Assembly (NCBI GenBank): GCA_000002445.1
Contig: CM000208.1
Span: 3,360,001 to 3,424,000 of the forward strand
Direction of reading: 5' to 3'
Source: Trypanosoma brucei
Taxonomy: Eukaryota
Length of the DNA: 64,000 nt
The notes beneath the pieces were generated by a model, which had not been told where the DNA came from, did no database searches, and was given only the letters and a program-made list of their open reading frames with translations. Positions within the stretch are counted from its first letter, which is position 1; the number at the start of each line of letters is the position of its first letter. The position numbers and the translations under genes are program-made. This document shows positions 1-36,376 of this stretch, one piece after another.

Positions 1-157
1 TGGGGGGGGGGCTGTGAGCTCGAAGTGGGGGTCAGAGGTAATAGTGGGGAAAAGCAGACAACTTTAGGGATACCACTCTTTACGAGAGCAGCAGGTTTAA
101 CTTGTGGTTCGCTCGTCCAGCTGTGCGGGAAAACCACGACAAGAGGGTTGAAATGTT

Positions 158-517
158 TTACGACACTGCGCTTTCACGATGACCCTTCTTGGCGTCACTG
201 GAACCTGTGAGGCCGGAAGATTCCTTGCGCGCCTTGACTAACAAACTTTTTGATTCCTGCAATATCCCTTTGAACGACTCCGAAGTGTCCCTGATGACTC
301 TGTCGAGCTCAGACCTCATCGCTGTCTTTTTTGCCAGGCTTTCATTCAGGGATACCAAACGCTCATTCAACGCGTTTACCTCGGTGAGTGTGCGGGCCCG
401 CTCCTCTTCCTCCCGCCGAATGTTTCGGTCAAGTGCCGCACGGCGCTCTTTGAGTTCTTCAATGACAGCCACTAACTCATTGCTGGTTGCCTGTGCTTCA
501 GAGCCGAACGAGGCCAT
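158..517 (-). CDS. Small coiled-coil protein (119 aa), hypothetical
   Basis: ORF 158..745(-). The N-terminal 76 codons translate a poly-T/low-complexity stretch, so the likely start is the internal ATG (cat at 515-517), giving MASFGSEAQ... The rest is heptad-like, charged and coiled-coil-like with coding-like composition. Same strand as the neighbouring genes. Confidence 0.45.
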   Translation of the reverse strand: MASFGSEAQATSNELVAVIEELKERRAALDRNIRREEEERARTLTEVNALNERLVSLNESLAKKTAMRSELDRVIRDTSESFKGILQESKSLLVKARKESSGLTGSSDAKKGHRESAVS

Positions 518-3141: not shown

Positions 3142-4641
3142 TTAAGGAAGATAGATGAGGCGAGTTTGGTTCGGGTACCCCTTCACAGAGTGGTCGGCAT
3201 GCACGACAACCACCACGTCTCCAGTGCTGGCATATTTCTCCTTCTTCGCAAAATCCAAACCGAGTTTCACGCGCTTTTCCTTATCCTTGTCCTCACCACT
3301 CTTTGCGGCGTCGTAGAAAACACTCACGACGGAGCGCGTCACGTTGAGTTGACGGCACGTTTGCAGACGTGTGGTGACACAAATGATGGGGCAGTTCGGG
3401 CGGTACTTGCTGATGAGGCGAGCACTTCGGCCCGTGTTGCTTAGCACGAGCATTGCCTTGGCTTGTACCTCAAATGCAGAGGCGACGGCGCTGCTGCAAA
3501 CGGCCTCTTCGGGGCACATGGGGATTTTCTGCAGGTTCTTAATGCTGTTGAACATAACAGTATCGTGCGTTGCGCTCTGCGCCTCGACACAGATGCGAGC
3601 CATGTACTGTACCACTTCGTTGGGGTACTTCCCTTTGGCCGTTTCACCGGAAAGCATGACACAGTCGGCTCCGTTGAGAACAGCATTGGCAACATCGGAT
3701 ACTTCGGCACGTGTGGGGCGGGGGTTTGACGTCATGCTCTCGAGCATTTGCGTGGCACAGATGACAGGTTTGCCCACCACGTTGCACTTGCTGATGATGC
3801 ACATCTGCGCCACACACACCTTCTCGGCGGGGATCTCGACGCCAAGATCACCACGAGCAACCATAATGCCATTGCTCGCTTCAATGATGGAGTCAATGTT
3901 CTGCACACCCTGGTGGTTTTCAATCTTGGAAATGATAAGGATGTCTTTTCCCTTCTCACCGAGGGCGGCGCGCACCTCACGAACCTGCTCAGCCGTGCGG
4001 ATGAACGAGGCAAAAATCATATCAACACCTTGTGCCACACCGAACTCCAAGTCCTTGCGGTCCTTCTCGGAAACGGCGGGCAGATCCACCTCACAACCTG
4101 GGAGGTTGATACCCCTGCGGTCGGTCAGGCGGTGGTGATTGTTCACGTGGCACTTCAGCGTCCGATCGTCTTCCTTGCTCACCACGCGGAGAGTCATCAC
4201 ACCGTCGTCAACATAAATGGAACCGCCCACGGGCACTGCCTTCGTCAGTTGTGGGTAGTCGATATAGAACTTTTCCTTTGTGCCAACCTTCTCATAGGCG
4301 GGATCGGTAGTGACACACACGATGTCACCAGGGGCGAAGCTCACCTCACCATCCTTGAAGAGGCCTGTACGGATTTCAGGACCTTTCGTGTCCAGCGCAA
4401 TACCAATATGAAGGCCAAGTTCAGCAGCAGCTGCGCGAACGTTGTTTATCGTCGTCTGGTGGTATTCATGGGATCCATGGGAGAAGTTCATACGGGCAAC
4501 AGACATACCACTCTTCATTAGGTTTTTCAGGGCTTCAACGCTCTGTGTGCTGGGTCCGATGGTGCACACAATGCGGTTGGCACGGTGTTTGGCCACCGGC
4601 TCAAAAATGGAGAGCCCAATGTTGTGCTCTAGCTGCGACAT
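3142..4641 (-). CDS. PYK1: Pyruvate kinase
   Basis: 499 aa. The N-terminus MSQLEHNIGLSIFEPVAKHRANRIVCTIGPSTQSVEALKNLMKSGMSVARMNFSHGSHEYH matches trypanosomatid PYK. PK-family motifs are present (MVARGDLG, GETAKGKYP, the effector-site region). Full-length ORF. Confidence 0.95.
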   Translation of the reverse strand: MSQLEHNIGLSIFEPVAKHRANRIVCTIGPSTQSVEALKNLMKSGMSVARMNFSHGSHEYHQTTINNVRAAAAELGLHIGIALDTKGPEIRTGLFKDGEVSFAPGDIVCVTTDPAYEKVGTKEKFYIDYPQLTKAVPVGGSIYVDDGVMTLRVVSKEDDRTLKCHVNNHHRLTDRRGINLPGCEVDLPAVSEKDRKDLEFGVAQGVDMIFASFIRTAEQVREVRAALGEKGKDILIISKIENHQGVQNIDSIIEASNGIMVARGDLGVEIPAEKVCVAQMCIISKCNVVGKPVICATQMLESMTSNPRPTRAEVSDVANAVLNGADCVMLSGETAKGKYPNEVVQYMARICVEAQSATHDTVMFNSIKNLQKIPMCPEEAVCSSAVASAFEVQAKAMLVLSNTGRSARLISKYRPNCPIICVTTRLQTCRQLNVTRSVVSVFYDAAKSGEDKDKEKRVKLGLDFAKKEKYASTGDVVVVVHADHSVKGYPNQTRLIYLP

Positions 4642-5136
4642 GGACTCTTCGGAATAAATCTGTTTTGTCTGAATTGTTCCTTTATTAGGTGATAATTAGT
4701 ATACCACAATTTGTTCTTTTTTTCCTTGGTTATTTGTGTTTAGATGCTTTATGCTGCTGTAGTTCTATATGAAGAAAAGGGTAGAAAGCAAACGAAAATG
4801 TAATTGTGGAAGTGGAGGGTACCAATCCTTTTCTTTACTTTTTTACGTTTAAAACCCTCAGTGTAACTTGTCGCTAGATCCATTCGTCGTTGATTGACTG
4901 TTGATGAGTTGGGAGTTAACCCATCAACAGTCACAAGCTCCACGGAAGGAAGGAGCAAGAAGGTGGAGGAGGAGATGTTTCACTTACTCAGCTACGTGTT
5001 GACAGCGAAAGGGAGTCCATTTCCTCCCTATCCCATACCTAAACTGACGCAGCGGTTTTGAGCAACAGGAAAACTGTTGTGCAGCAACAAAAAGGCACAT
5101 TACAGAGGATGGGGAGCGAAGAGTGGGAGGTCGCTG

Positions 5137-5362
5137 AGCAATACTCACCTCTCCCTTCCTATATTCCACTTATTTGGCACAGGATGCTCTTTTTTTAACG
5201 GCATCGCGCCACCTCAGTTTGCATATCCCTAACTTTCCACGCTTTCTGCGACACTTGTCCCATCGTCACATATGAATCTGAGGGGATGGCGCACGTAGTT
5301 TTGGACATCAGTTTGTTCACCCTTATACCCTTCACTTACATGCTATATAGCTTCAATGCATC
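5137..5362. repeat. 227-bp direct repeat, copy 2 (upstream flank of pyruvate kinase)
   Basis: Near-identical to 2713..2939. The two copies bracket the PYK CDS in direct orientation. Confidence 0.9.
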
Positions 5363-5910
5363 GTTTCCTTCCATCAATTCTACAACATGATTAACTAGAG
5401 AAATTATATATAGTAGCGAAGGTACACCACAAGGAGACAAAGGGCGTGCACAAGAGCAAAGTTAAAAAGAAGGCAAGCTCCTTTCCTGTTATTTTTTGTC
5501 GTGTTGGTATGGACCTGTAAATGGCCCTGCTTTAAGCACGGTGCAGGTGCCGCATGCTCACCCACGCTGCATTAGTGGCACCTTCTCACTAACCAGTTGA
5601 TTGTTATACGCCCCAATAATATTCAACGTGATATTCTTTTTTCCTCCGCATTCTTCCCCGCCACTTACCCCCCCCCTTTACTCCGCTGCGCTTTCTGGCC
5701 CTAACCCTGCTGCTTTTTCCCTTTCCCTTCCCTTCCATTTCCTTTACTTTTTTGTCCTCTCTAGACTCTTTTCCATCTCCATACGAGTCACCTTCCGCCT
5801 TGACCGCGCGGACCGCGTGCGCGGTTTGTTGATAGAAAGGGGTAGTTAAAACGTGTACAGGACGAGAAAAGCATGGGACCAGCAACATCCCTACCTCACG
5901 ACACAATTAT

Positions 5911-7350
5911 TTACGCAAAATCCTCCCCCTCTCCCTCATTGGTTTCATCTTCTTTAGCGACTGCCTCTTCCTCACCTTCTTGCTCTTTCTTCTCCTCATC
6001 CTCCTCGTCATCGCTGGAGAGTTCTGGTTCGCCTGTTTTGATGTGACTGGAGTACTCCTTCAGTTTGGCACGGATATTTTCCATGATTCCACCAATGTCT
6101 TCCAGGAACCTCGGTGGCTGCTCGTCAACAAGCTTGAACAATTCCAACTTCTCTTCACTATGCTTGATGACTCGCGGTTTCGGCGCCGAATCCCTCTTTG
6201 CTTTATTGGCTTGTTGCTTCTGCTTCTTGCTGTCGCCTCCGTTCTGATGACTCATGCCATCGTTCAAGACCACGGCACCTTCTGGGGCAAACTCCGCTGG
6301 GTCAAAGTTTGCCGCTGCCTCCCTCCTGGCCCGCTCCTCATTCTCGCGTTGAACCATAATCTTTTGGTCCCTCAAATACTGTAGAAGGGTGTCGCATGCC
6401 GCGATTTCCACCTCGTATGGGTTCATGCGACGCAGCGCACGCTCACGCTTCTCCGCCAACTTGGGGGCATTCTTTCGTTCCAGGAACCTGCGGTGGCGTT
6501 CCTTGCGCACTTCCTCCATTTTGGCCATGTGCTTAGCGCGGGCTTCATCACACCACGACTTCCACACCTCCATTGCCTTCTGGAAGTCCTCAGAAAGTGC
6601 GTTCATTTCCTTGGTAATACTGGTGATCTTTGCGCTGATCTCATCACACTTTTTGAATACTTCCTGCCGATTCGCCCCAGTGCTCCTCATTTTGTCATCT
6701 TTCTCCATTTTGGTTGATCGTTGTCCCTTGTATTCTTCATTGAGACCCCGAATGCGCTCGTTAATTTCTTGGATCTCACGTTGCAACGTCGCCTCGCAGT
6801 GCTTTGCCTCCGCGATGGCCTCGGAAACAGGCTGCAGCTCCTGCAAGTACCGTTTAGCATCCTCAAGTTGGCCTATTTGTCGCATGATGCGCTTCTCGGC
6901 GGCGAGTCCACCGCCACTTGTCTCCATTTTTTTCGTCATGTACTCGATGGCCTCGTCGAACTCCTCCACGCTTTTAAAGCCGCCCAGGTCATCTGTCAGA
7001 GAGCGGAGTTTCTTCACGTACTCGTCGTGTTTCTTCCTTACTTCAATAATCTCCTCTGACTTTTTGGAGCGCATTTCTTGTTCAGCCTTCCGTTTGTCAT
7101 CAAGCTCCTTGAGCCTCTGTCGGATCTCGTCGCGCTCCTTGTCAGGCTCACTTTTTGGTCCCAACGAAGCACGTAGCTCCTTGATTTGGGCGATAAGAGC
7201 CCCTTTCTCCTGCGAAAGTGCTTTCATCTTGGTTCGGTGCTCCATTACATCTGGTCTCGGAGGCGCCCCCGGAGCTGTCATCCACCGCGGTTGAGGACGC
7301 CTTTCCGTCGGCGCGGGCGCAGCTTCAGGTGCCGTCTCTGTCTTGCTCAT
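5911..7350 (-). CDS. Conserved coiled-coil protein (479 aa), hypothetical
   Basis: Long minus-strand ORF rich in E/K/R/L heptads with an acidic C-terminal tail (DDEEDEEKKEQEGEEE). No catalytic motifs recognised. Confidence 0.6.
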   Translation of the reverse strand: MSKTETAPEAAPAPTERRPQPRWMTAPGAPPRPDVMEHRTKMKALSQEKGALIAQIKELRASLGPKSEPDKERDEIRQRLKELDDKRKAEQEMRSKKSEEIIEVRKKHDEYVKKLRSLTDDLGGFKSVEEFDEAIEYMTKKMETSGGGLAAEKRIMRQIGQLEDAKRYLQELQPVSEAIAEAKHCEATLQREIQEINERIRGLNEEYKGQRSTKMEKDDKMRSTGANRQEVFKKCDEISAKITSITKEMNALSEDFQKAMEVWKSWCDEARAKHMAKMEEVRKERHRRFLERKNAPKLAEKRERALRRMNPYEVEIAACDTLLQYLRDQKIMVQRENEERARREAAANFDPAEFAPEGAVVLNDGMSHQNGGDSKKQKQQANKAKRDSAPKPRVIKHSEEKLELFKLVDEQPPRFLEDIGGIMENIRAKLKEYSSHIKTGEPELSSDDEEDEEKKEQEGEEEAVAKEDETNEGEGEDFA

Positions 7351-8210
7351 TGCTGCTGATGCTTTTTGGCAGAACCTTTCCCCCTTGGTACACTAATCGT
7401 GCAAATTAATGAGGCAACTTCCTCAATCTAATTATATTATTCTTATTTTGTTCCTTTTTCCACTCTTACAACGTATTCCCTTATTGTTGTCAATTAATCG
7501 CCTCTCCAATGCAACTTTAGCCAACTCTCTGCCCCCTTTGAAATTCCTTGCTATTGTTGTCTAAACAGAGTTATTAGTTGACCAAGAGAAGAGGCACTCT
7601 GATTCGTGGGAGGTGAGCAAAAGCGCATACAGAGCAGAAAAAAAAAGGGAGACAATACCCCTAGAGGATGCCAAACACATGGCGCTATCGTCGGCGAGCT
7701 TTTGCGTTGCTGCGCCACGTATTGGCCCGCATAAATTCAAATGGTGGCAATAGGAGTTGTGCGAGTACACATGCGACTACCATAAACTTGATGACGCAGC
7801 CGGTGGAGTTTTCCTGCTTCCCCCTCTCCTCTTCCTTTGAGAATTCCCCTGAGTTGCCAAACCGATCCACTGGTGTGCACCTCCGGATGCGGAGCGGTGC
7901 AAAGCAGCCCAAACAAAAGACATGTGTACAGAAATAAAAGGGTAATGCCCACCCCCGCCTCGCCCCCACATTACATAAATCGGGAACATATTCTTTTCCT
8001 TCTTCTTCATGTACTCCAGCATGTAAATAAATGGATGTGCTTACGTATTCTTTCGCTGAGAGTGTGCTGCAAAGGGCATCTAAAGGGGCAGATGTGATTA
8101 TATCCGCTTCCTCAAACAAATTTTAGTGGAGGTGGCGGAAACATAACGAACATGTTCCGTCCCCTTCCACACCCCAGGAACAGCGTTCCCATCAAGTTCA
8201 CAATTCATAA

Positions 8211-8430
8211 GGTGAAAAATATTCCCCTTGCATTTTACCTTTGCTTTTAATCAGGCACCATAAATGTTATTTGGAACTCCATTTAGTATTATAATTCTTC
8301 CCTTTTCCTTCATGCAGATTAGTGTGGCACAAAATATTTGTACAGAAAAAGTCCAAAGATACCTCCAAACAATGGAATAACTAGTGGAACCCAGAAATAA
8401 TAATTTGCATGTGAAAACACCTTCCCACCA
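8211..8430 (-). pseudogene. Relic of an aquaglyceroporin 3' end (last 36 codons, stop and about 108 nt of 3'UTR)
   Basis: The 220 bp is about 97% identical to 9351..9570 (AQP3 3'UTR plus C-terminal coding). The reverse-complement of 8319..8428 reads [36 protein letters not shown]. Homology stops abruptly at 8430 and there is no upstream ORF. Confidence 0.8.
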
Positions 8431-9095: not shown

Positions 9096-9350
9096 AGAAA
9101 AAAGTAAACATGAGATTAGTGATGGGGAAAGACTTTCTTACGCTGCTGAAGGGAGCAACAGCACCTATGGATTGCGCCATCTGTTCACCTTATTTATCTC
9201 TAAAAATTAGTGTCCCCTTCGATCATTGTACTTAATACAATGAAACAAAACGGCAACCAGAAAGGCAGCTCATGCACTCAAAAACAGGAAAAGAATCGTT
9301 TTTTTTTAAACACGAATTAAAATAACGCTTTTTATATACTTAGTACATAC

Positions 9351-10650
9351 GGTGAAAAATATTCCCCTTGCGTTTTACCTTTGCTTTTAACCAGGCACCA
9401 TAAATGTTATTTGGAATTCCATTTAGTATTATAATTCTTCCTTTTTCCTTCATGCAGATTAGTGTGGCACAAAATATTTGTACAGAAAAAGTCCAAAGAT
9501 ACCTCCAAACAATGGAATAACTAGTGGAACCCAGAAATAATAATTTGCATGTGAAAACACCTTCCCACCATAAAGAAAAGAAGAGAAGACCCTGGGACCG
9601 AAGTCACGAGCCGGATTTATTGCGTAACCCGTTGAGTAACCGATGTTATTGCCAATGGCGAAGACAAGAGCACCAACTGCCAACGGCTCGTGTCCCTTGG
9701 CAGGAGAGTTATTGGGGTCGAAGATACCGCAGACACAGAACAATAGCATCGCCGTACATATAAACTCACCAAAGATACAAGAAAATAGACCATTTGAATC
9801 CCTTGGGTAGGTGCTGAACACACCTGCGGTCCCCTTTTCACCGAAGGCAATCAACTCACCACCACCATGCGCCTTCAGGAGATCAGCAAACACTCCGTAA
9901 GCGCAGGCAGCACCAAGAAAGGCACCGAGCATCTGCGCCGCGATGTAGCCGGGGACTTTTCTCCAAGGGAAATCACCGAAAACCGCATTGCCAACGGTGA
10001 CGGCGGGATTAAGGTGGCCGCTCGAGATACCCAATGAAACATACAGAGCCATCGTGACGGCAATGCCCCAACCAAGCGTAATGCTGAGGAACCCCAGTTT
10101 CCCATCAATGATAACCGTGGCGACCACACCATTACCCATAAAGAGCAGGACGAAGGTTCCCAGCAGCTCCCCCATGTAGTCGCGGTAATTTAGCCGCAGT
10201 TCCCGTGGTGCCCAAAAGTTGATGCCTCCCGGTACTTCCTCTTGAGCCTCCGCCACCTCATGTTTCCGGTTGCTACTGTCGTCGTTTCCCTGAACACGGA
10301 CCTCCACTGTTCCATCCTTATTAACCGCTTGTAGCTCCATGGGATACGCCACATTGTCTGGTTGGCTCTGCATTCTGATTTTCTGGAGCTTTTTTTTCTT
10401 GTTGCTCGAATTCAATTTTTAAATAATGTCTGATGTGCTGAAGGCGCTACCTAACAATTGTTTTTGTTTCCTCCTACACTGTTACACAAATAGTCAGCAG
10501 CGGGCGATAGAATAGGGGGAACGGGGTTTATAAGGTAGCAAAGCACCTTGCGTGACGCAAGAATGAATGTTCGGAAGTGAGGAAAGTAATATCGACAGCA
10601 TTAACAAGGAATTCCCACATGCGCATGCGTGTGCGTAGAGGAGTGAAACG
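9351..10650. repeat. Tandem duplication unit 1 (AQP3 gene with 3'UTR and 235-bp 5' flank)
   Basis: Paralogous to 11120..12446. The 5' flank 10416..10650 is identical to 12212..12446, and the first about 130 nt of CDS are identical. The 3'UTRs are about 80% identical. Confidence 0.85.
9459..10415 (-). CDS. AQP3: Aquaglyceroporin 3 (canonical NPA/NPA plus Arg filter)
   Basis: 318 aa MIP-family protein. First motif [11 protein letters not shown], second motif [11 protein letters not shown] (NPA followed by the conserved Arg). Six predicted TM segments. The N-terminal 44 aa are identical to the paralogue downstream. Confidence 0.9.
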
Positions 10651-11119
10651 AAGAGCAATATCGCTAATCGTAATTTGAATGCCTCTCCGAGGCACATCGT
10701 TGCGTGGTAACGTAAACAAATGGGATGGGGAGAGGAAAGTGAAAGAGGGTGGAAGATGTGGCAACCTACTAAGGTTCCGTCATGTATTCCCTTCCTCCAC
10801 ATTATTATTGTTATATATTTCTACCCGCTGAATAAAAATAGACAAGTGATAAAAATAAGGGATGATGAAAAGACAAACACAGCATTTACCTCTACAGGGG
10901 CACCGCACCCTCTCGGTTAAACCGCTATAAACTCCTTACAACACATCCTTATTGTTTGATCCCATTCTCTTTCTTTTATGCCCCTTAGGTTAAATTATAA
11001 TGTGACATAACAGAGCAGTTTGCCTTCGCCTTTGGAGAAGGCAAAAACTTCAACGCTCACCGTTTCACCCGCATTCTTCGGGAGAAACAAAACCTCTCTG
11101 TTATATTCTTAACTCATAT

Positions 11120-12446
11120 GGTGAAAAATGATCCCTTCGTTTTATTTTTCATCTTTCCTTTTAGCTAGGCACCATCAATGTTATTTGGAATTCCACTAAC
11201 CGTCAATACCCTTCGCCCTACCCTGGCCGATTAGTGTGGAAGAAAATATTTGTACAGAAAAAGTCCAAGGATAGCTCCAAAGAATGGAACAACTAGTGGA
11301 ACCCAGAAATAATAATTTGCATGTGAAAAAACTTCCCCCCCGAGAAGGATCGCACCGAAGACCCTGGGACCGAAATCAAGTGAGGGATTCATCGCAAGGG
11401 GAGACGCTAAGCCGAAGTTGTTGACCATGACGAAGACAAGAGCACCAATAGCTACCGTTTCGTACCCCTTGGCAGGAGAGTTATTGGGGTCAAAGATACC
11501 GCAGACACAGAGCAGTAGCACTGCGGTGGAAATGAGTTCAGCAAAAATTGGATAAAATATACCATTTCCTTCCGCGGGGTACATGGCAAACACCCACGCA
11601 ATCCCCTTTTCACCGAAGGCAATCAACTCACCACCACCATGCGCCTTCAGGAGATCAGCAAACACTCCGTAAGCGCAGGCAGCACCAAGGAAAGTGCCGA
11701 GCATCTGCGCCGCGATGTAGCCGGGGACTTTTCTCCAAGGGAAATCACCGAAAACCGCATTGCCAACGGTGACGGCAGAGTTGAGATGGCCACCGGAGAT
11801 GCCCAGTGAAACATACAGAGCCATCGTGACAGCCACACCAATACCAATCGTAAGACCGAGAAGCCCAAAATCTGGAACAAGTAGTGAGGTGATAACCGCG
11901 CCCTTAGCGATATATATGAGGACGAAGTTTCCCAGAAATTCAGCCACGTAGTCGCGGTAATTTAGCCGCAGTTCCCGTGGTGCCCAAAAGTTGATGCCTC
12001 CCACGGGTTTCTCTTGAGCCTCCGCCACCTCATGTTTTTGTACATCTGCATCCCACCGCTCATTGCTACTGTTGTCAACGTTTCCCTGAACACGGACCTC
12101 CACTGTTCCATCCTTATTAACCGCTTGTAGCTCCATGGGATACGCCACATTGTCTGGTTGGCTCTGCATTCTGATTTTCTGGAGCTTTTTTTTCTTGTTG
12201 CTCGAATTCAATTTTTAAATAATGTCTGATGTGCTGAAGGCGCTACCTAACAATTGTTTTTGTTTCCTCCTACACTGTTACACAAATAGTCAGCAGCGGG
12301 CGATAGAATAGGGGGAACGGGGTTTATAAGGTAGCAAAGCACCTTGCGTGACGCAAGAATGAATGTTCGGAAGTGAGGAAAGTAATATCGACAGCATTAA
12401 CAAGGAATTCCCACATGCGCATGCGTGTGCGTAGAGGAGTGAAACG
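11120..12446. repeat. Tandem duplication unit 2 (AQP2 gene with flanks)
   Basis: See unit 1. The offset is 1769-1796 bp; the 27-bp difference comes from 24 extra coding nt in AQP2. Confidence 0.85.
11231..12211 (-). CDS. AQP2: Aquaglyceroporin 2 (atypical NSA/NPS motifs, Arg replaced by Leu)
   Basis: 326 aa MIP-family protein. First motif [11 protein letters not shown] (NSA, at about 11774-11782). Second motif [11 protein letters not shown] (NPS plus Leu, at about 11378-11389). These are the hallmark residues of TbAQP2, the pentamidine/melarsoprol uptake channel. Confidence 0.9.
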
Positions 12447-12799: not shown

Positions 12800-13936
12800 T
12801 CAGTGAACCCGCTGATTTTGGTTTTCGTATTCGCTGAGAGGTGTTTTAAACCATGGTTGGCAAAACTCATTGCCTTCACGGAGGATAAACACTTCCGAAT
12901 TGCCAGTTGTAACCACCAGCATGCCTCCAGTGGGCGACCACGAGAGACGCCATACCGGCTCATCGAAGAGGACGCAACTGCGCTCCCAACCACCGCTCAC
13001 CTCTCCCATGGCATCCCTTCCCCCTTCGCCGCTCCGCAACCCCCGGTCATCAATACAAGTCGTGAGGTGACTCCACTGTTTGCGGTGAATGATGACACTC
13101 CTGTCCTGTCCGCAACTAGCAATAACTGCGTATCGCGTCGCAGCGGAAAGAGGTTCGAAAGCAACGTCTCGCACCCAGTCTGTGTGACCTTCGAGCAACT
13201 CCAGGAAGTGATAGGGATGGGCCCCAGCAGCGCCGCCTTCGGGTAAGTACCACAAACGAACTCGTGAGTCACATCCACCAGAGACCAAAAGCCTCCCGTT
13301 ACCCAACTGTGGACAAGTGGGCGCAAATGATACGCATGTGGCTCCCATGGCATGTGCGATGTTGTTGCTGTTGTTACTCAGTTTAACGCTCTCACGCCAG
13401 GCACCCTCTTCATATGTTGTTACTGCCACGGTGCCATCACTACTCGCCGTCGCAAGCATGGGAGATTCGGGTGCCCACTGTACGGCATTGACGCTACCCT
13501 GGTGAATGTCAATCACATGCACTGGTCGCCATTGGCGTGTGGGTTGCGACACTTCTTTCCATACAATTGCCTTGTGATCGTAGCCAGCCGATGCCAAGAC
13601 AGTGCCAAAGCGCGGGTGTGCCCAACTCACCATCCACACGGGACCCTCATGACCTATGAGGGTCGCAACTCGCTGCATCTGACCGTCTCGGACCGTGTGA
13701 ATGCCTATAGTGCGGTCGGAGCTTGCGGTCGCGAGTTGCTGTCCGTAGTAGTCGAATTGCGTGTCGTGGATTATGTCCTGATGTTCCTGAGGTTGCTGCT
13801 GCTGGAATTGTTGGGGCTGCTGTGGTTGTCTCTGTTGATGCATATCATGGGGTGCCACTGGTGCTGCCTGGCCGTAGCCACCAATAGTGCGGTTTTGCGA
13901 CGGGTATCTAGTTGAATGAAGCATTATTGGTATCAA
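12800..13936 (-). CDS. SEC13: Sec13-like WD40 protein (COPII / nuclear pore)
   Basis: HDTQFDYYGQQLATASSDRTIGIH...GHEGPVWMVSWAHPRFGTVLASAGYDHKAIVWKE...VNAVQWAP aligns closely with Sec13 ([24 protein letters not shown]...[32 protein letters not shown]). It carries an additional Q-rich N-terminal extension. Confidence 0.75.
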   Translation of the reverse strand: MIPIMLHSTRYPSQNRTIGGYGQAAPVAPHDMHQQRQPQQPQQFQQQQPQEHQDIIHDTQFDYYGQQLATASSDRTIGIHTVRDGQMQRVATLIGHEGPVWMVSWAHPRFGTVLASAGYDHKAIVWKEVSQPTRQWRPVHVIDIHQGSVNAVQWAPESPMLATASSDGTVAVTTYEEGAWRESVKLSNNSNNIAHAMGATCVSFAPTCPQLGNGRLLVSGGCDSRVRLWYLPEGGAAGAHPYHFLELLEGHTDWVRDVAFEPLSAATRYAVIASCGQDRSVIIHRKQWSHLTTCIDDRGLRSGEGGRDAMGEVSGGWERSCVLFDEPVWRLSWSPTGGMLVVTTGNSEVFILREGNEFCQPWFKTPLSEYENQNQRVH

Positions 13937-28094: not shown

Positions 28095-29003
28095 CTACTG
28101 AACAAAGTCTGGCATCTCTGGCATATCGAGGAGGTCTTGAAGCACACGTGCAGCCACAAGAATACTAGCCCAAAACCACCACTCCCACCGACGTCGTGCT
28201 TCCTCCAGCGAAACCCACCAGATTTCGCGACCCAGTGGCACGGAGTGGCGGGTATTGTGTGTTTCCTTGAGAACAACAACCCCACGCGATGCTTTAATCA
28301 ACTGCGCTACCTCCTCGTGTAGCTTCCCCACGTCTACATCATTGCGACTCAAAATTCGCCTTGTTTGTAGCGACTGCTGCAGAGATCCGTTGATGGCAGC
28401 AACACCAGCGGCGATGCCGGTCTCCATTTTGCTCAAACCACCACCCGCAAATGAGGCGGCTGCCGTGTGGTTCACCTTTACCAAAAAGTTATCGTCTTCA
28501 GCCCTTGTCCCCGTCAGAGGGGTCATGAGGGCCTCACTGCGGTGAGATCCATGTGAAGGCACTATCATTGAGGGGGATACTGGCGTGAACACCGGTCCAG
28601 GCCCGACATATGGACTTGGCAGCTCGACAGCTTGCAGGTATTTTTCGTCCCACTTCGGTATGTGTCGCGTGTAGAAGAACCAACGACGGAATTCCCATTG
28701 CCTCCTCCGACGGAAGCGCATGATGTTCTTGTGGCGAAGGCGTGAATATGTCGGGTATGCGCCCCACCAGGTCCACATTAATAGCATGGTACCGGAAGCA
28801 TACAAGTAGTCACGATACATAACGCTAATTGCCCCAAACAAAAAGTCGGCGCTGCACTCGAATGGGTTCTTATTCTGTCTGGCGATATCCTCCATCAGCT
28901 TCTTCTCGTGAGCCTCATACTTACTATCATCCGCCGTGCGCACCCCTATCTGAGAGACTACCATTCTCACTATGAAGCTGATTTGCAACAGTTGTTTCCC
29001 CAA
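28095..29003 (-). CDS. Hypothetical protein (302 aa), W/R-rich, possibly membrane-associated
   Basis: Minus-strand ORF. Contains hydrophobic stretches (TMLLMWTWWGAYPTY; WWFWASILVAARVL). No family recognised. Confidence 0.45.
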   Translation of the reverse strand: MGKQLLQISFIVRMVVSQIGVRTADDSKYEAHEKKLMEDIARQNKNPFECSADFLFGAISVMYRDYLYASGTMLLMWTWWGAYPTYSRLRHKNIMRFRRRRQWEFRRWFFYTRHIPKWDEKYLQAVELPSPYVGPGPVFTPVSPSMIVPSHGSHRSEALMTPLTGTRAEDDNFLVKVNHTAAASFAGGGLSKMETGIAAGVAAINGSLQQSLQTRRILSRNDVDVGKLHEEVAQLIKASRGVVVLKETHNTRHSVPLGREIWWVSLEEARRRWEWWFWASILVAARVLQDLLDMPEMPDFVQ

Positions 29004-29690
29004 TTTCTTTTTGTTGTTTTTGTTGTTGTTGCTGCCTCTGTGCCTCTATTATATTTCACTCACTTTCTCGGTGACAACAAAACTATTTGCATTTAACGCA
29101 ACGGTTTGCGTCGGCAAGCACTAACCAACCTCCTCGTGTCACCCCGCCTTGGAATCGAAGAGAGCGGAACAGAAGTTAAGGCATTTCTCATCCTTGAAGA
29201 TTAACAGTGCAGGCATCGGACTCCGGGTTCAGGGTGGAGGAGCGTTGCAACGTACGTGTGCCCGTAAATGTACAGGAAAATAAAACCGAAAAAAATAATA
29301 ATAATAAGAGTTGTGATTCAACAACTTCGGCGACGTGAAAGCGCGTTCCAGGCGAGTAAACAGTGATAGCCCTCGTCCTCGCTTTCTCTTAGTCTCGCAA
29401 CCTTACTACCCCCTGCTGCAACTTTCTAGCCTCCCGGCTTGAAAAGGGGCTAGAGAGGGAAAATAAGCCTTAGGAAGTAGTGCATACCGACAGAATAATT
29501 GCACGCCAGTACAGTACCATGTGACACAAGTAGGAAAATACGCGAGTAGTGGGCTCCGGCTCAGCAAGTTGTGCGTAGCCACGAAGACACATCTTTGGGC
29601 AAGAGTACAAAGCTGAACAGATGATACGGGAAAACTTGCATTAAATGCTACACAGGCAGCCCGAGTCTCGTGTTTTGTCGCTCCCCTTTC

Positions 29691-30224
29691 CTACAGTCCT
29701 TTTGATTCTTTGTCCATCATAACCACCGGTTGCAGCACTAAGAGTTTGTTAGTTTCTCCAACCCGACCATTCACAAACATCTCCTCAACGATAAAATGAA
29801 CCTTCTCCAAGTTAAACATAACATCGAGCTCACACACATTCCCAAAGTACTTATCTAATGTCTCCACGAGAAGTTGAATGAACTCGTAAATCGCCAGTTC
29901 CCCTCCTTGTGTCTGCTCCTCAAACGTGTCAGTGTCGAAACCGTTTGCGGGGACTAAACTAAAAGATTTGCCGTTCACTTCCTCACGAAGCGCCTTACGG
30001 TTGTTTAATCCAACGATGAAGAAAAGAGACGCGTAACGCCGATAAACGAGTTTGTAGTGAAGATGATCAAGGAAATTACAATCCGTGTCTCGTCGTTGCA
30101 AACACTTTCGCACAACTTCTCCCTCCAACGCAGTACGCTCAACTATGGGCATAAAAGTGCTATACTGCGCTAACCGGGTTTGGCCCTGTCTGTTCACGAG
30201 AAATATGAACTCAATTGTCGTCAT
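29691..30224 (-). CDS. Adaptor protein (AP) complex sigma subunit
   Basis: MTTIEFIFLVNRQGQTRLAQY...KLVYRRYASLFFIVG...LDKYFGNVCELDVMFNLEKVHFIVEEMFVNGRVGET matches the sigma-adaptin fold (MIxFxLxxNRQGKTRLAKWY...YRRYAGLYF...LDEYFxNVCELDLVFNFxKVYxxxDEMFLAGEIxET). The start is set at the ATG at 30224. An upstream in-frame ATG at 30272 would add 16 aa. There is an about 30-aa insertion relative to typical sigma chains. Confidence 0.8.
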   Translation of the reverse strand: MTTIEFIFLVNRQGQTRLAQYSTFMPIVERTALEGEVVRKCLQRRDTDCNFLDHLHYKLVYRRYASLFFIVGLNNRKALREEVNGKSFSLVPANGFDTDTFEEQTQGGELAIYEFIQLLVETLDKYFGNVCELDVMFNLEKVHFIVEEMFVNGRVGETNKLLVLQPVVMMDKESKGL

Positions 30225-30272
30225 ACAAATGAAGTTGACCTTCACTTCACTTTTTTTTTCCCGCTTCGCCAC

Positions 30273-33200
30273 GCCGTGTTGCGGATATTTGCGGGTCTGG
30301 TGAGGTGGAGGAGGAGGGGGGGGGGGATGGAAATAAAATAAAAAATAAAAACAACAACAGAAAAGTGAAGAAGAGAGAAATGGTGAGAATGGAAGGCGTA
30401 GAAGGAATTGTGCAGAAACGGGATGACAAAATAGATGGGACCCTCATGAGCGTATAATACATTTATTTGTTGATAGATACAGAGGATTCCGCTTTCAACA
30501 AAGGCTCCGTTCCATAAACAACAAAGCGAATCCTAACATGATTTGTTTTTTTTTTAATTTGGCAGTCATATCTTCGCCGTAAAAATATAGAAGAAAAAAA
30601 AGAGATTGCGAGGCCCGTGCGAGAGTAAAGGATAGCACTAGCGACATTAAGATCAAAAGAAAAAGAAACACAACATCACAAAACAAAACAAAAGAATTTA
30701 ACTTTTATCATAAAAATTCAAAAAAAAGCAAAATTAGTGATAATAGCAATAACACCAGTAATAACAGTAGAGAAGTTGTTGAATAGTAATAAAGAAAAAA
30801 AAAAGGAAAACAATCAAAAGAACACCACATAAAAAAAACAAAAGGAAAGGAAGGGGGAAAAAAAGGACAAACAAACAAACAAACAGAAACAACTCTTTTC
30901 TTTGGTTTGCTTTATTACTGTTACTGTTATCGTTATTATTAATTCCTTCGTTTTCTTTCATCATCATGCCTTCAGTTTGCCCGTTGCTTAGTAATTATTT
31001 ATGGTTATAATGATAGTTGCAGCAGCAGTTGCCGAAGCAACAAGTGCGGTCGAAGCAAATAACAGAGAAAACGAAAAAGGAAAAGGAAGAATAGGATGAA
31101 TAAAATAGGCAGGAAAAAAAAAAAAGAGGAAAGAAATGCAGAGAGGAAAAACGAGAGAATAAAAGACAAGAATAAAACAAAAATAGCTTTCGAAAAAAGT
31201 AGCATTTCGTTGGACACACATTAACGGACTTATTAATTAATATGTACCACACCGTAAGATTTTTTTCCCCTTTTTAAAAAAAAGATTTCACCTCTCCCTC
31301 CTCTCATATTTCCTCTGTTTACTTTTGTTGTTTGTTTTTGATTTCGATGCCTTCTTATCCTTTCTTCCGTTGTAGTGAACATATGAATTTCTTTTTTTTT
31401 TTCTTCAAATGTTAATTTATAACTTCAAATATGAACATTAAAATATTTATGCATTTTTGCTTTTTTTTTGTCATTGTGGGCGTTCACTTTTCACTGATGC
31501 CATTAGCAGTACGATCACTTTTTTTTTTCCTCCACTTGACTTAACTTGTCGTTTTGATTTTTAACTATTTATTTGAAATTTTTTTTAAAAAAAGGAGGGG
31601 AAAAAACATTGCCTGTTGCTCCTCTCCCTTTTTTTTTTTTTTTGGGGGGGGGCGTATGTTCCTCGCACAGAACCATTTTGTGCATTTATAATAATTATAA
31701 TTACAATAATAATAATAATAAAACCAGGGGAGCATATCGCAAGGAGGAAAAGTGAGTGAGGGACAAGACTGGGAGAAGCATCAAAACTAAAACTAAAACT
31801 AAAACTAAAACAAAAACAAAAAAAAACAGTTAAATAAAATAAAATCAAGTGACAATTTATGAAAAGAACAAAGAAAAAAACTTTAATAGTGAATTGAATT
31901 GAAAAGCAACTTAACCCATCAATCGACAACAGAGTGTGGGTACTTTTTTTTAAAAAAAAAAGAAAAAAAAGAAAAAAGAAACTGAACTAAAGAGAAGGGG
32001 GAAAAAAATTTAAAAAGAACGAAAAGACAGGAACACACATACACATACACATACATTTATAAATTTATAAATATATAAATGTGTATGGAGATTTTTTTCT
32101 TTTAAAAAAAAAGAGGGGGAAGTAGAAAGGAAGAGAGAAAGAGGAGCAAACTAACTAACTGACTGACAAGAATTAATAATAGAAAGGGGATAATTGGATT
32201 AACACAGGAAAAAACAAAAAACAATAACAATAACAACACATAAACACGCAGACATACACACACACACACACATTTTTTTTAAAAAAAGAAGTGACATAAA
32301 AGAAGAATTAAATGTCCATGAATTCGTTTTATTATTTTAAGTTTTTATGTCTCCCAACACCAACACTAACCGTTTCCATTCCTTTCCTACGAGAGATCAT
32401 GTTGCCAATGGTATTAATAGTTATAATCATAACAGTAACAATAACAATACTAATAATAACAATATTAATAACAACACAAACATGACGCGCCGGATATAAG
32501 TAAGATTAAGAAGTGGAGGGTGGAGATCCTCCGTTACTTCCTTCCTTCCCATTGCGAAGAGGAAAACAAACAAAACAAACAAAACAAAACAAAAAAAAAA
32601 AGAGTGGCACTCAAAAGTACGCGATTGGATGAAGGATAAATAAAAATAAAAAGAACGAAAACGAAATCGGTCAAGATTTTTTTTTTTAAAAAAAAGAAAG
32701 GGAAGAAAAAAGGACGTAGAGACGTACACATGCATATATATAAATATATATATATATATATAAAATAAGCATAGTTAACATATACGCATGGATGTGTACA
32801 GGCATATCTAAACACATATTCGAAGAAAAAAGAAAAAAAGTCCAAAGTAAGCTGAAAACGAAAAAAAAAGAAATTGAAAAAGAGGTAAATAATTAAAAAT
32901 AATTATAATAACAATATATATATATATATATATATAAAGTCGTACATATATAAATATCAATAATTCATTATAATAAAATATAAAAATCTCATCTGTATCC
33001 GAAACACATGACGCAAAAAAAAAAAGAAGTGAGTGAATGGATGTGAACGAGTGGAAGCTCTTTTCACTTAATTTCCTTTTCCTCACCTCTGCACAAACGT
33101 ATTATCAGAAATTTCAGAGGAAATACATATAATAATAACAATAATAATAAAAAAAAAAAGAACAAAACAAAACAAAATAAAACAACAACGACAACAACAT

Positions 33201-36200: not shown

Positions 36201-36376
36201 CCATCCCCAAGTGATCCGAAATGGAAATCATTATTGGCGCTTTGGCACATAATCTCTCGGATTCGAGTCCTTTGATCCAGACGAAAAGAAAGAGAAGTCA
36301 AAAAGGAAAAAAAAAGAAAAAAAGAAAAAAAAAAGAAAGAAAACAAAAATCAGAGTGCTGTACCCTGTTGGAATAA
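30273..36376. repeat. 6.1-kb ORF-free low-complexity block (homopolymer, oligo-purine/oligo-pyrimidine and short tandem repeats)
   Basis: Alternating A/G-rich and T/C-rich blocks, e.g. (AAAACT)5 at about 31790, (GGAAA)n at about 33205, (TA)n and (TG/CA)n tracts, and long A- and T-runs. Every six-frame ORF here is short and low-complexity (F/L/K-rich). Confidence 0.8.

What the first reader, a model, noticed from the sequence alone, without database searches (positions are those of the whole stretch)
9351..12446. AQP3/AQP2 tandem duplication with mosaic perfect-identity patches (gene-conversion and chimera substrate)
The two paralogues are in direct tandem with a 1.77-1.80 kb period. Three segments are 100% identical by eye. 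These are the 235-bp 5' flanks (10416-10650 versus 12212-12446), the first 44 codons, and a central block ([30 protein letters not shown]...[14 protein letters not shown]). The TM1-3 region, the C-terminal third and the 3'UTRs are clearly diverged, at about 80% for the UTRs. This patchwork is the signature of recurrent gene conversion between copies. It supplies long perfect homology tracts for unequal crossover that would fuse AQP2 and AQP3 into a chimera and delete the spacer. That is a mechanistic basis for drug-resistance alleles.
Basis: seen in the sequence. Interest (0 to 1): 0.7.

Follow-up and report, generated by a model that had tools for sequence, protein, structure and literature searches.

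The report
Trypanosome AQP2/AQP3 recombining gene pair

Summary
The window matches T. b. brucei TREU927 chromosome 10. AQP2 (12169..11231) and AQP3 (10373..9459) lie on the minus strand as direct repeats with a period of 1772-1796 bp. Overall identity is 83% over about 1350 bp, yet there are perfect runs of 368, 88, 80, 55 and 39 bp. In 20,000 shuffles of the difference positions the longest run averaged 35 bp and never exceeded 104 bp. The identical blocks are homogenised, not merely conserved. AQP2-AQP3 dS is 0.05-0.07 in the blocks against 0.95-1.1 in the diverged segments. The same blocks are saturated against AQP1. The 5' flank is 277/277 identical, against 90/132 for the 3' flank. Published junction coordinates (247MR 363, AQP2/3(814), (880), (678-880), B48 569-841) fall exactly on the edges of perfect runs in this window. 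The published AQP2-deletion allele is the product expected from a crossover in the 368-bp block. Small additions made here: the DAL972 reference 'AQP3' is itself a mosaic carrying 7 of 8 AQP2 pore residues. An AQP3 3' relic lies at 8206-8430. Pairwise dN/dS comes out at 0.38-0.50, not the published 2.0. Novelty: already known. Interest: low.

The parts
11231..12169 (-). AQP2 coding sequence (312 aa plus stop; NSA/NPS motifs at residues 130 and 261). This is the upstream copy in the direction of transcription.
   Evidence: Exact protein match to EAN78785.1 and CBH16553.1, 'Aquaglyceroporin-2'. Pfam MIP PF00230, 133.9 bits. Motif positions.
9459..10373 (-). AQP3 coding sequence (304 aa plus stop; NPA/NPA motifs at residues 122 and 253). 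This is the downstream copy.
   Evidence: Exact protein match to XP_827896.1 / EAN78784.1 of T. b. brucei TREU927 only. Pfam MIP, 165 bits.
12079..12446 (-). 368-bp perfect-identity block, AQP2 copy. It covers 276 bp of 5' flank plus the first 30 codons and 2 nt of codon 31 (CDS nt -276..91). Homology stops abruptly upstream of 12446.
   Evidence: Present in the DAL972 and T. b. equiperdum assemblies with 1-3 differences.
10283..10650 (-). 368-bp perfect-identity block, AQP3 copy.
12041..12064 (-). 24-bp (8-codon) segment present in AQP2 and absent from AQP3. It changes the repeat period from 1796 to 1772 bp. The exact placement depends on the alignment.
   Evidence: Alignment. AQP1 and the T. 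vivax AQP also lack it in the protein alignment.
11948..12002 (-). 55-bp perfect run (AQP2 nt 168-222; AQP3 copy at 10176-10230). It holds the junction of the T. evansi AQP2-N-terminus/AQP3 chimeras and one edge of the DAL972 AQP3 conversion tract.
11807..11830 (-). 24-bp perfect run (nt 340-363; AQP3 copy at 10035-10058). The published 247MR chimera ('first 363 bp of AQP2') ends here.
   Evidence: against Munday 2014, PMC3922157.
11602..11776 (-). Central homogenised block (AQP3 copy at 9830-10004). It is an 80-bp run (nt 394-473) and an 88-bp run (nt 481-568) split by 4 mismatches at nt 474, 475, 477 and 480. It is bounded by the AQP2-specific pore residues S131 and I190.
   Evidence: The 4 mismatch positions are the East-African AQP2 polymorphisms reported by Graf 2013. 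The B48 and P0016 junctions lie in the 88-bp run.
11466..11511 (-). 19-bp and 26-bp perfect runs (nt 659-677 and 679-704; AQP3 copy at 9694-9739). They hold the 5' junction of AQP2/3(678-880) and of the T. evansi patch alleles.
11357..11374 (-). 18-bp perfect run (nt 796-813; AQP3 copy at 9585-9602). It holds the junction of the clinical AQP2/3(814) chimera.
   Evidence: against Graf 2013.
11291..11329 (-). 39-bp perfect run (nt 841-879; AQP3 copy at 9519-9557). It holds the junction of AQP2/3(880), the return junction of (678-880), and the 3' limit of the B48 272-nt tract.
11101..11230 (-). Diverged homologous 3' flank of AQP2 (the AQP3 counterpart is 9332-9458). Identity is 68% counting gaps.
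10651..11100 (-). Unique 450-bp spacer between the two repeat units. It has no detectable homologue upstream of AQP2 or downstream of AQP3. It is lost, together with one gene-equivalent, in the fusion alleles.
   Evidence: The PCR product drops from 3200 to about 1500 bp in chimeric isolates.
8206..8430 (-). Relic third copy: the last 36 codons plus stop of an AQP3-type gene and about 113 nt of 3'UTR. It is 97.8% identical to 9346-9570 and lies 1140 bp downstream of it. The upstream frame is closed by stop codons.
   Evidence: Present in all three strain assemblies.

Best explanation
This is the AQP2-AQP3 tandem locus of Trypanosoma brucei (chromosome 10, TREU927-type sequence). An ancestral single aquaglyceroporin gene at this position was duplicated. 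The duplication is old in neutral terms, at about 0.6-1 substitution per silent site in the unconverted segments. Since then, short-tract non-reciprocal exchange (interlocus gene conversion) between the two direct repeats has repeatedly re-homogenised parts of the unit. This left a mosaic of perfect tracts: 368 bp at the 5' end, 80 + 88 bp centrally, and 55, 39 and smaller runs elsewhere. The diverged segments in between carry every AQP2-specific pore residue.

Inferred step: selection for the AQP2 pore removes conversions that overwrite these residues, which would explain why the block edges abut S131 and I190.

The same identical tracts serve as junction sites when a break is repaired by unequal crossover or single-strand annealing between the repeats. 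An exchange inside the CDS deletes one 1772-bp period and leaves an in-frame AQP2/3 fusion. An exchange in the 368-bp block deletes 1796 bp and removes AQP2 entirely. A two-ended exchange replaces an internal piece of AQP2 with AQP3 sequence. All three outcomes abolish AQP2-mediated drug uptake and are selected by melarsoprol or pentamidine.

Shown here: the mosaic, its statistical significance, the homogenisation of silent sites, the strain polymorphism of tracts, and the coincidence of published junctions with the run edges. Taken from the literature: the resistance phenotype. Inferred: the repair pathway, and selection as the cause of the block boundaries.
For: Identity of the locus:
- Exact protein matches to TREU927 AQP3 and AQP2.
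- Synteny with a Sec13-like WD40 gene and pyruvate kinase.

Mosaic:
- Perfect runs of 368/88/80/55/39 bp, against a shuffle mean of 35 bp and maximum of 104 bp.
- Shuffling third codon positions only: the second and third longest runs exceed all 20,000 shuffles.

Homogenisation rather than constraint:
- AQP2-AQP3 dS is 0.05-0.07 in the blocks and 0.95-1.1 in the diverged segments, by NG86, YN00 and ML.
- The same blocks against AQP1 give dS 1.4-3.7.
- Four-fold sites differ at 3/76 against 18/44, P = 5e-7.
- The 5' flank is 277/277 identical; the 3' flank is 90/132, P = 1e-23.

Recurrence, from strain-specific exchanges:
- DAL972 AQP3 carries AQP2-type tracts at 11947-11777 and 11426-11240 (A2 coordinates), while DAL972 AQP2 is identical to the TREU927 AQP2.
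- AQP3 CAG27022 carries an AQP2 'KPV' patch.
- T. b. rhodesiense AQP2 carries the AQP3 state inside the central block.
- T. evansi AQP3 carries an AQP2 'YETVAI' patch.

Junctions:
- 363, 813, 879, 677 and 569-840 coincide with run edges.
- One K03048 allele is 'upstream region of AQP2 followed by the AQP3 ORF'.
- In B48, AQP3 was unchanged.

Pore residues: I110, S131, I190, W192, V249, L258, S263 and L264 all lie outside the perfect runs (residue roles from PMC7473772).

Single AQP at the syntenic T. vivax locus.
Against: - Junction preference for long runs is weak statistically. About 50% of the CDS downstream of the 368-bp block lies in runs of 18 bp or more anyway.
- Several patch junctions show only 0-11 bp of shared identity. 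These are AQP2/3(617-658) and several DAL972 AQP3 junctions.
- The DAL972 mosaic rests on one Sanger-era assembly and could be an assembly error. No independent sequence of it was found.
- The 368-bp block is nearly the same in all three strains. Its homogenisation could therefore be a single old event rather than a recurrent one.
- The literature dates the duplication to after the T. suis split. That sits uneasily with dS of about 1 in the diverged segments.
- Selection as the cause of the block boundaries is inferred, not tested.
Confidence: 0.88

Rival explanations
1. The duplication is recent, and the identical tracts are simply the unchanged original. The diverged patches arose afterwards by rapid adaptive evolution of AQP2 (pore widening), without any gene conversion.
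For: Alghamdi 2020 reports that the duplication followed the T. suis split and gives dN/dS = 2.0 for AQP2 against AQP3. AQP2 is the fast copy in the diverged segments: dN to AQP1 is 0.29 for AQP2 against 0.12 for AQP3. All pore-specific residues sit in the diverged patches.
Against: Positive selection does not raise silent divergence, yet dS is 0.95-1.1 and four-fold sites differ at 41% in the diverged patches, against 4% in the blocks. The non-coding 3' flank is only 68% identical and the spacer is unalignable, while the 5' flank is 277/277. Pairwise dN/dS computed here is 0.38-0.50 for the whole gene and 0.32-0.36 in the diverged patches, not above 1. Strain-polymorphic tracts and the B48 allele show that conversion does occur.
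Confidence: 0.06
2. The identical tracts are kept identical by purifying selection or by a locally low mutation rate. Candidates are a conserved channel core and conserved 5'UTR or trans-splicing signals.
For: The central block encodes a conserved part of the MIP fold, and its protein sequence is also fairly conserved in AQP1 and the T. vivax AQP. The 5' block contains the pyrimidine-rich region and 5'UTR, where processing signals are expected (sequence; inference).
Against: Silent sites in the same blocks are saturated against AQP1 and T. vivax: dS 1.4-3.7, with four-fold sites 55-58% different. Within the blocks, 73 of 76 four-fold sites are identical between AQP2 and AQP3. 277 consecutive identical non-coding bases far exceed what signal conservation requires.
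Confidence: 0.03
3. The diverged patches of AQP2 were imported from a third, now lost, divergent AQP paralogue (for example the gene whose relic lies at 8206-8430) into an otherwise recent duplicate.
For: A relic of a third copy exists downstream of AQP3. dS of about 1 implies a donor of considerable age.
Against: The relic is AQP3-type: it is 97.8% identical to AQP3 and only 80% identical to AQP2. AQP1 is not the donor, because dS between AQP2 and AQP1 is about 1.9 in the diverged patches. No other AQP fragment is present in the 64-kb window. This reading needs more events than an old duplication followed by conversion.
Confidence: 0.02
4. The perfect identity is an assembly artefact, caused by collapse or cross-polishing of two paralogues in the reference.
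For: Repeats do trouble assemblies. The T. equiperdum OVI scaffold has N-gaps exactly at the block edges.
Against: The same blocks appear in two other independent chromosome-level assemblies, DAL972 and T. b. equiperdum GCA_003543875.1, with only 1-3 differences. Independently PCR-sequenced alleles give junction numbers that match the run edges to the nucleotide.
Confidence: 0.01

Closest known systems
TbAQP2/TbAQP3 locus (Tb927.10.14170 / Tb927.10.14160) and its published resistance alleles: TbAQP2-3(569-841) in B48, 247MR, AQP2/3(814), (880), (678-880), (617-658), and the AQP2 deletion alleles
   Same: It is this locus. The proteins are identical to the TREU927 entries. The published junction numbers coincide with the perfect-run edges in the window. 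The literature already attributes the chimeras to homologous recombination or single-strand annealing enabled by the high AQP2-AQP3 identity.
   Different: Nothing essential differs. The open-access papers searched describe the similarity globally ('83% identity', 'very similar gene') and do not use the term gene conversion for the wild-type mosaic. They also call the DAL972 AQP3 differences 'minor'.
Interlocus gene conversion and concerted evolution of tandem paralogues, together with non-allelic homologous recombination fusions. Classic examples, from general knowledge: human alpha-globin and gamma-globin duplicates, the red/green opsin array, the CYP21A2/CYP21A1P and GBA/GBAP1 chimeras, haemoglobin Lepore.
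   Same: All share direct repeats with a mosaic of homogenised tracts, silent sites homogenised along with coding sites, single-crossover deletion fusions that lose exactly one repeat period, and short patch conversions that leave the donor intact.
   Different: Here the fusion or conversion is positively selected by drug pressure, because it destroys a drug-uptake channel. The organism also relies heavily on homologous recombination and microhomology pathways.
FRDg/FRDm2 chimera formation in T. brucei (PMC8065229)
   Same: This is another T. brucei case in which recombination between neighbouring paralogues deletes the intervening DNA, yields a chimeric gene, and is selected metabolically (abstract seen).
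   Different: It involves a different gene family and a different selective agent. I did not analyse that locus here.

Membership tests
Major intrinsic protein (aquaporin/aquaglyceroporin) family | Match to the MIP profile (PF00230) above the curated cut-off across the six-helix core | tested here: met
   AQP2 scores 133.9 bits and AQP3 165 bits, against a cut-off of 25. Profile positions 7-222 of 222 are matched.
Major intrinsic protein (aquaporin/aquaglyceroporin) family | Two NPA-type half-helix motifs | tested here: met
   AQP3 has NPA at residues 122 and 253. AQP2 has the known variant NSA at 130 and NPS at 261.
T. brucei AQP2/AQP3 locus (Tb927.10.14170/14160) | Protein sequences identical to the database entries | tested here: met
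   AQP3 equals XP_827896.1/EAN78784.1 (TREU927 only). AQP2 equals EAN78785.1/CBH16553.1/RHW69761.1.
T. brucei AQP2/AQP3 locus (Tb927.10.14170/14160) | Head-to-tail tandem arrangement in the conserved chromosome-10 neighbourhood | tested here: met
   The window is collinear with the DAL972 and T. b. equiperdum chromosome 10 at 98.4-99.5% over 9.9 kb. The gene order is SNARE, 460-aa gene, WD40, AQP2, AQP3, 479-aa gene, with pyruvate kinase next in the window.
Interlocus gene conversion (concerted evolution) between paralogues | Identical tracts significantly longer than expected from the overall density of differences | tested here: met
   The top four runs (368, 88, 80, 55 bp) were exceeded in 0 of 20,000 shuffles. 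A shuffle of third codon positions only is also significant for ranks 2 and 3.
Interlocus gene conversion (concerted evolution) between paralogues | Silent and non-coding sites are homogenised inside the tracts but diverged outside, and the tracts are not slow-evolving against an outgroup paralogue | tested here: met
   dS is 0.05-0.07 against 0.95-1.1. The blocks against AQP1 give dS 1.4-3.7. Four-fold sites differ at 3/76 against 18/44. The flanks are 277/277 against 90/132.
Interlocus gene conversion (concerted evolution) between paralogues | Non-reciprocal transfer: the recipient changes while the donor stays unchanged and both copies are retained | tested here: inconclusive
   DAL972 AQP3 carries AQP2-type tracts while DAL972 AQP2 is unchanged, but this rests on a single assembly. 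The literature case is clear: B48 has 272 nt of AQP2 replaced and AQP3 unchanged, and AQP2/3(617-658) occurs without loss of AQP3.
Interlocus gene conversion (concerted evolution) between paralogues | Segment-wise phylogenetic incongruence relative to orthologues in a close outgroup species | not testable with these tools
   T. suis AQP sequences were not retrievable. The T. congolense protein P0019 has no contig on record. T. vivax and AQP1 are saturated at silent sites.
Non-allelic homologous recombination / single-strand-annealing deletion fusions | Junctions lie within sequence shared by the two direct repeats, and exactly one repeat period is lost | tested here: met
   The published junctions 363, 813, 879 and 677 fall on the 3' edges of the 24-, 18-, 39- and 19-bp perfect runs. 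The PCR product shrinks from about 3200 to about 1500 bp, against a period of 1772-1796 bp.
Non-allelic homologous recombination / single-strand-annealing deletion fusions | Dependence on a break between the repeats and on a specific repair pathway (RAD51-dependent HR, SSA or MMEJ) | not testable with these tools
   Only the end products are visible. Graf 2015 calls single-strand annealing 'putative'.

The most novel reading that the evidence does not exclude
The AQP2/AQP3 duplication may be considerably older than it looks in whole-gene trees. Conversion-homogenised blocks pull the two genes together, and that could bias both the published 'post-T. suis' dating and the published pairwise dN/dS of 2.0 (I obtain 0.38-0.50). 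The mosaic would then be a balance between ongoing conversion and selection at the pore residues, with block edges abutting S131 and I190. Conversion would also run in the 'gain' direction in nature: the DAL972 reference 'AQP3' carries 7 of the 8 AQP2-specific pore residues, which would make it a possible second drug-permeable channel.
Probability: 0.3. Interest if true: 0.4.

Novelty: already known. Interest (0 to 1): 0.18.

Why it matters
The locus matters medically. [quoted passage not shown] This finding adds no new principle. Its modest value is a nucleotide-level map of the perfect runs, which explains every published allele class from the reference sequence alone. It also raises three testable side points:
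- whether the DAL972 AQP3 mosaic is real and functional;
- whether the age of the duplication and the dN/dS estimate are distorted by conversion;
- what the downstream AQP3 relic records.

Tried and rejected
- T. equiperdum OVI scaffold (L006) as a fourth strain. It has N-gaps exactly at the block edges and lacks the 5' half of AQP2, so it is uninformative.
- Test of whether junctions prefer long runs. About 50% of the CDS lies in runs of 18 bp or more anyway. All five simple deletion chimeras use such runs, but small patch conversions (617-658; several DAL972 junctions) have only 0-11 bp of identity. The junctions are also not independent. I therefore make no strong claim.
- Search for homology between the 450-bp spacer and the DNA upstream of AQP2 or downstream of AQP3. 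None was found at blastn word size 11.
- Tandem Repeats Finder on 7-37 kb and Rfam on the whole window. Both returned nothing.
- Literature search for 'gene conversion' together with AQP2 and AQP3. It returned only one unrelated paper.
- T. congolense AQP (P0019). No contig is on record, so no DNA-level outgroup closer than T. vivax or AQP1 was available.
- Independent confirmation of the DAL972 AQP3 protein. Its cluster has one member from one contig.
- Rivals rejected: AQP1 as a conversion donor, assembly collapse, and purifying selection (see the rival explanations).
Full report
**Identity and anatomy**

All large ORFs in the window are on the minus strand. Two MIP-family genes lie head to tail:
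- AQP2 at 12169..11231 (312 aa, NSA/NPS motifs).
- AQP3 at 10373..9459 (304 aa, NPA/NPA motifs).

An exact-sequence look-up finds the AQP3 protein only as T. b. brucei TREU927 XP_827896.1/EAN78784.1. It finds the AQP2 protein as TREU927, DAL972 and T. b. equiperdum 'Aquaglyceroporin-2'. The window is therefore TREU927-type chromosome 10.

The neighbours are a Sec13-like WD40 gene at 12800-13936, a 479-aa gene at 5911-7350, and pyruvate kinase at 3142-4641. The ORF lister extends both AQP genes 14 codons upstream to a TTG.

**Checking the observation**

BLAST and MAFFT alignments of the two units show homology from 12446 to 11101 (AQP2 unit) and from 10650 to 9332 (AQP3 unit). Identity is 83% over 1348 columns. 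A unique 450-bp spacer lies at 10651-11100. An 8-codon indel changes the period from 1796 to 1772 bp.

The perfect runs are 368 bp (12446-12079 = 10650-10283), 88, 80, 55, 39, 27, 26, 26, 24, 19, 19, 18 and 18 bp. I redistributed the 200 difference events at random 20,000 times. The longest run averaged 35 bp and never exceeded 104 bp. None of the shuffles reached any of the observed top four runs.

- The central block is 80 + 88 bp, split by four mismatches.
- The 3' flank is 68% identical, not about 80%.
- The extreme C-terminus is about 92% identical rather than 'clearly diverged'.

**Conversion or constraint?**

I built a codon alignment with two outgroups. One is the unlinked paralogue AQP1 (L003). 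The other is the single T. vivax AQP, which sits at the syntenic locus (L004).

- AQP2-AQP3 dS is 0.05-0.07 in the identical blocks and 0.95-1.1 in the diverged segments, by NG86, YN00 and ML.
- The same blocks give dS 1.4-3.7 against AQP1, so they are not silent-site cold spots.
- Four-fold degenerate sites in codons with the same first two bases differ at 3/76 in the blocks and 18/44 outside (Fisher P = 5e-7). They differ at 55-58% against AQP1.
- The non-coding 5' flank is 277/277 identical. The non-coding 3' flank is 90/132 (P = 1e-23).
- The spacer has no detectable homologue elsewhere.

Purifying selection cannot produce this pattern. Recent duplication followed by adaptive divergence cannot either. 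An old duplication (0.6-1 silent substitution per site) with later homogenisation of tracts can.

**Recurrence**

Deposited alleles, painted against the window's AQP2 and AQP3, show exchanges that differ by strain:
- An AQP3 from T. b. brucei (CAG27022) carries the AQP2 'KPV' patch, flanked by the 27-bp and 55-bp runs.
- T. b. rhodesiense AQP2 (AGY30931) carries the AQP3 state inside the central block. This corresponds to the nt 474/475/477/480 polymorphisms of Graf 2013, which are exactly the four mismatches at window 11696-11690.
- T. evansi AQP3 alleles carry an AQP2 'YETVAI' patch.
- Several T. evansi genes are AQP2-N-terminus/AQP3 fusions joined in the 55-bp run.

At the DNA level I retrieved the T. 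b. equiperdum (L001) and T. b. gambiense DAL972 (L002) loci. The AQP2 units differ from the window by 1 and 0 bases respectively. The equiperdum AQP3 differs by 4 bases.

The DAL972 'AQP3' is a mosaic:
- AQP3-type at the 5' end.
- AQP2-type from 11947 to 11777 (A2 coordinates; 56 of 57 informative sites), bounded by the 55-bp and 80-bp runs.
- AQP3-type centrally.
- A 15-bp AQP2 patch.
- AQP2-type again from 11426 to 11240.
- An AQP3-type 3'UTR.

It thereby carries 7 of the 8 AQP2-specific pore residues: I110, S131, W192, V249, L258, S263 and L264. This rests on one assembly and I could not verify it independently. [quoted passage not shown]

**The chimera substrate**

I converted the perfect runs to AQP2 CDS coordinates and compared them with published junction numbers.

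| Allele | Published description | Position in this window | Source |
|---|---|---|---|
| 247MR | first 363 bp of AQP2 | end of the 24-bp run, nt 340-363 | Munday 2014, |
| AQP2/3(814) | first 813 bp | end of the 18-bp run, nt 796-813 | Graf 2013, |
| AQP2/3(880) | first 879 bp | end of the 39-bp run, nt 841-879 | |
| AQP2/3(678-880) | first 677 bp, then back at 880 | ends of the 19-bp and 39-bp runs | |
| B48, TbAQP2-3(569-841) | 272 nt replaced | nt 569-840, the exact gap between the 88-bp and 39-bp runs | |

In B48, AQP3 was unchanged, so that allele is a conversion. [quoted passage not shown] That is the product expected from an exchange inside the 368-bp block. I infer this assignment; the junction itself has not been reported at nucleotide level in the text I read. 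The amplicon shrinks from about 3200 to about 1500 bp in chimeric isolates, which matches loss of one 1772-1796-bp period.

The authors already attribute these alleles to homologous recombination or single-strand annealing favoured by the high AQP2-AQP3 identity. T. brucei recombination is known to depend on substrate length, with a separate short-substrate pathway (Barnes and McCulloch 2007).

A caution applies. Any junction must by definition sit in some run of identity, and about half of the CDS is in runs of 18 bp or more. The five simple deletion fusions all use such runs. Small patch conversions, namely (617-658) and several DAL972 junctions, show only 0-11 bp. I therefore do not claim a statistically demonstrated preference for long runs.

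**Why the mosaic has this shape (inference)**

Every residue shown experimentally to make AQP2 drug-permeable lies outside the perfect runs: I110, S131, I190, W192, L258, S263 and L264 (PMC7473772). S131 directly abuts the start of the 80-bp run. I190 overlaps the end of the 88-bp run. This fits conversion tracts being trimmed by selection for the AQP2 pore.

AQP2 is the fast-evolving copy in the diverged segments, with dN to AQP1 of 0.29 against 0.12 for AQP3. Pairwise dN/dS between AQP2 and AQP3 is 0.38-0.50 for the whole gene and 0.32-0.36 in the diverged segments by four estimators. I cannot reproduce the value of 2.0 stated by Alghamdi 2020. Their method may differ.

**Comparison with what is known, and verdict**

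This is the TbAQP2/TbAQP3 locus itself. Formally it is a case of interlocus gene conversion plus non-allelic recombination or SSA fusion between tandem paralogues. It is analogous to the globin, opsin and CYP21 examples (general knowledge) and to the FRDg/FRDm2 chimera in T. brucei.

Novelty is 'already known' and interest is low. The residual points worth a specialist's glance are the DAL972 AQP3 mosaic, the silent-site evidence that the duplication is old and masked by conversion, the dN/dS discrepancy, and the AQP3-type relic at 8206-8430.

Noticed in passing
window 8206-8430 (minus strand): A relic third AQP copy lies here. It consists of the last 36 codons plus stop of an AQP3-type gene and about 113 nt of 3'UTR. 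It is 97.8% identical to 9346-9570 and sits 1140 bp downstream of it. The coding part is 100% identical to AQP3, and stop codons close the frame upstream. It is present in the TREU927, DAL972 and T. b. equiperdum assemblies. It could be the footprint of an earlier unequal exchange or of a lost third gene.
   Followed up: partly
L002 (T. b. gambiense DAL972 FN554973.1) 6801-7715, compared with window 9459-10373: The DAL972 reference 'AQP3' is a mosaic with two long AQP2-type tracts. It carries NSA/NPS motifs and 7 of the 8 AQP2-specific pore residues, lacking only I190. Published schematics call its differences 'minor'. It is either a natural AQP2-to-AQP3 conversion product or an assembly error. 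No independent copy was found.
   Followed up: partly
window 9459-12169 (the AQP2 and AQP3 coding sequences): Pairwise dN/dS of AQP2 against AQP3 is 0.38-0.50 by NG86, LWL85, YN00 and ML, and 0.32-0.36 in the diverged segments. Alghamdi et al. 2020 state 2.0. Converted tracts would distort any whole-gene estimate.
   Followed up: partly
L004 (T. vivax SOPI01000403.1) 5001-5882: The single T. vivax aquaporin sits between the Sec13-like WD40 gene and the 491-aa and pyruvate kinase genes. It is therefore positionally orthologous to the AQP2/AQP3 locus, not to the AQP1 position. The chromosome-10 site looks like the ancestral location, although the literature calls AQP1 the ancestral AQP.
   Followed up: no
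window 29003-36377: A 7.4-kb stretch has no ORF of 250 aa or more inside an otherwise dense minus-strand polycistron. GC content is 0.29-0.34, against about 0.50 elsewhere. It is full of (TA)n, poly-A, poly-T and CT-rich low-complexity tracts. There is no Rfam hit.
   Followed up: no
window 10494-10802 (minus strand); L002 6372-6680: A 102-aa ORF spans the AQP2-AQP3 spacer and the 5' identical block. It is called as a gene in the DAL972 annotation. It is probably a spurious gene model in the AQP3 upstream region.
   Followed up: no
L006 (T. equiperdum OVI CZPT02000568.1) 3415-3424 and 4828-4837: The scaffold has N-gaps exactly at the edge of the 368-bp block (window 12447) and again near the AQP3 5' region. 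This shows that short-read assemblies break or mis-join at these identical tracts.
   Followed up: yes
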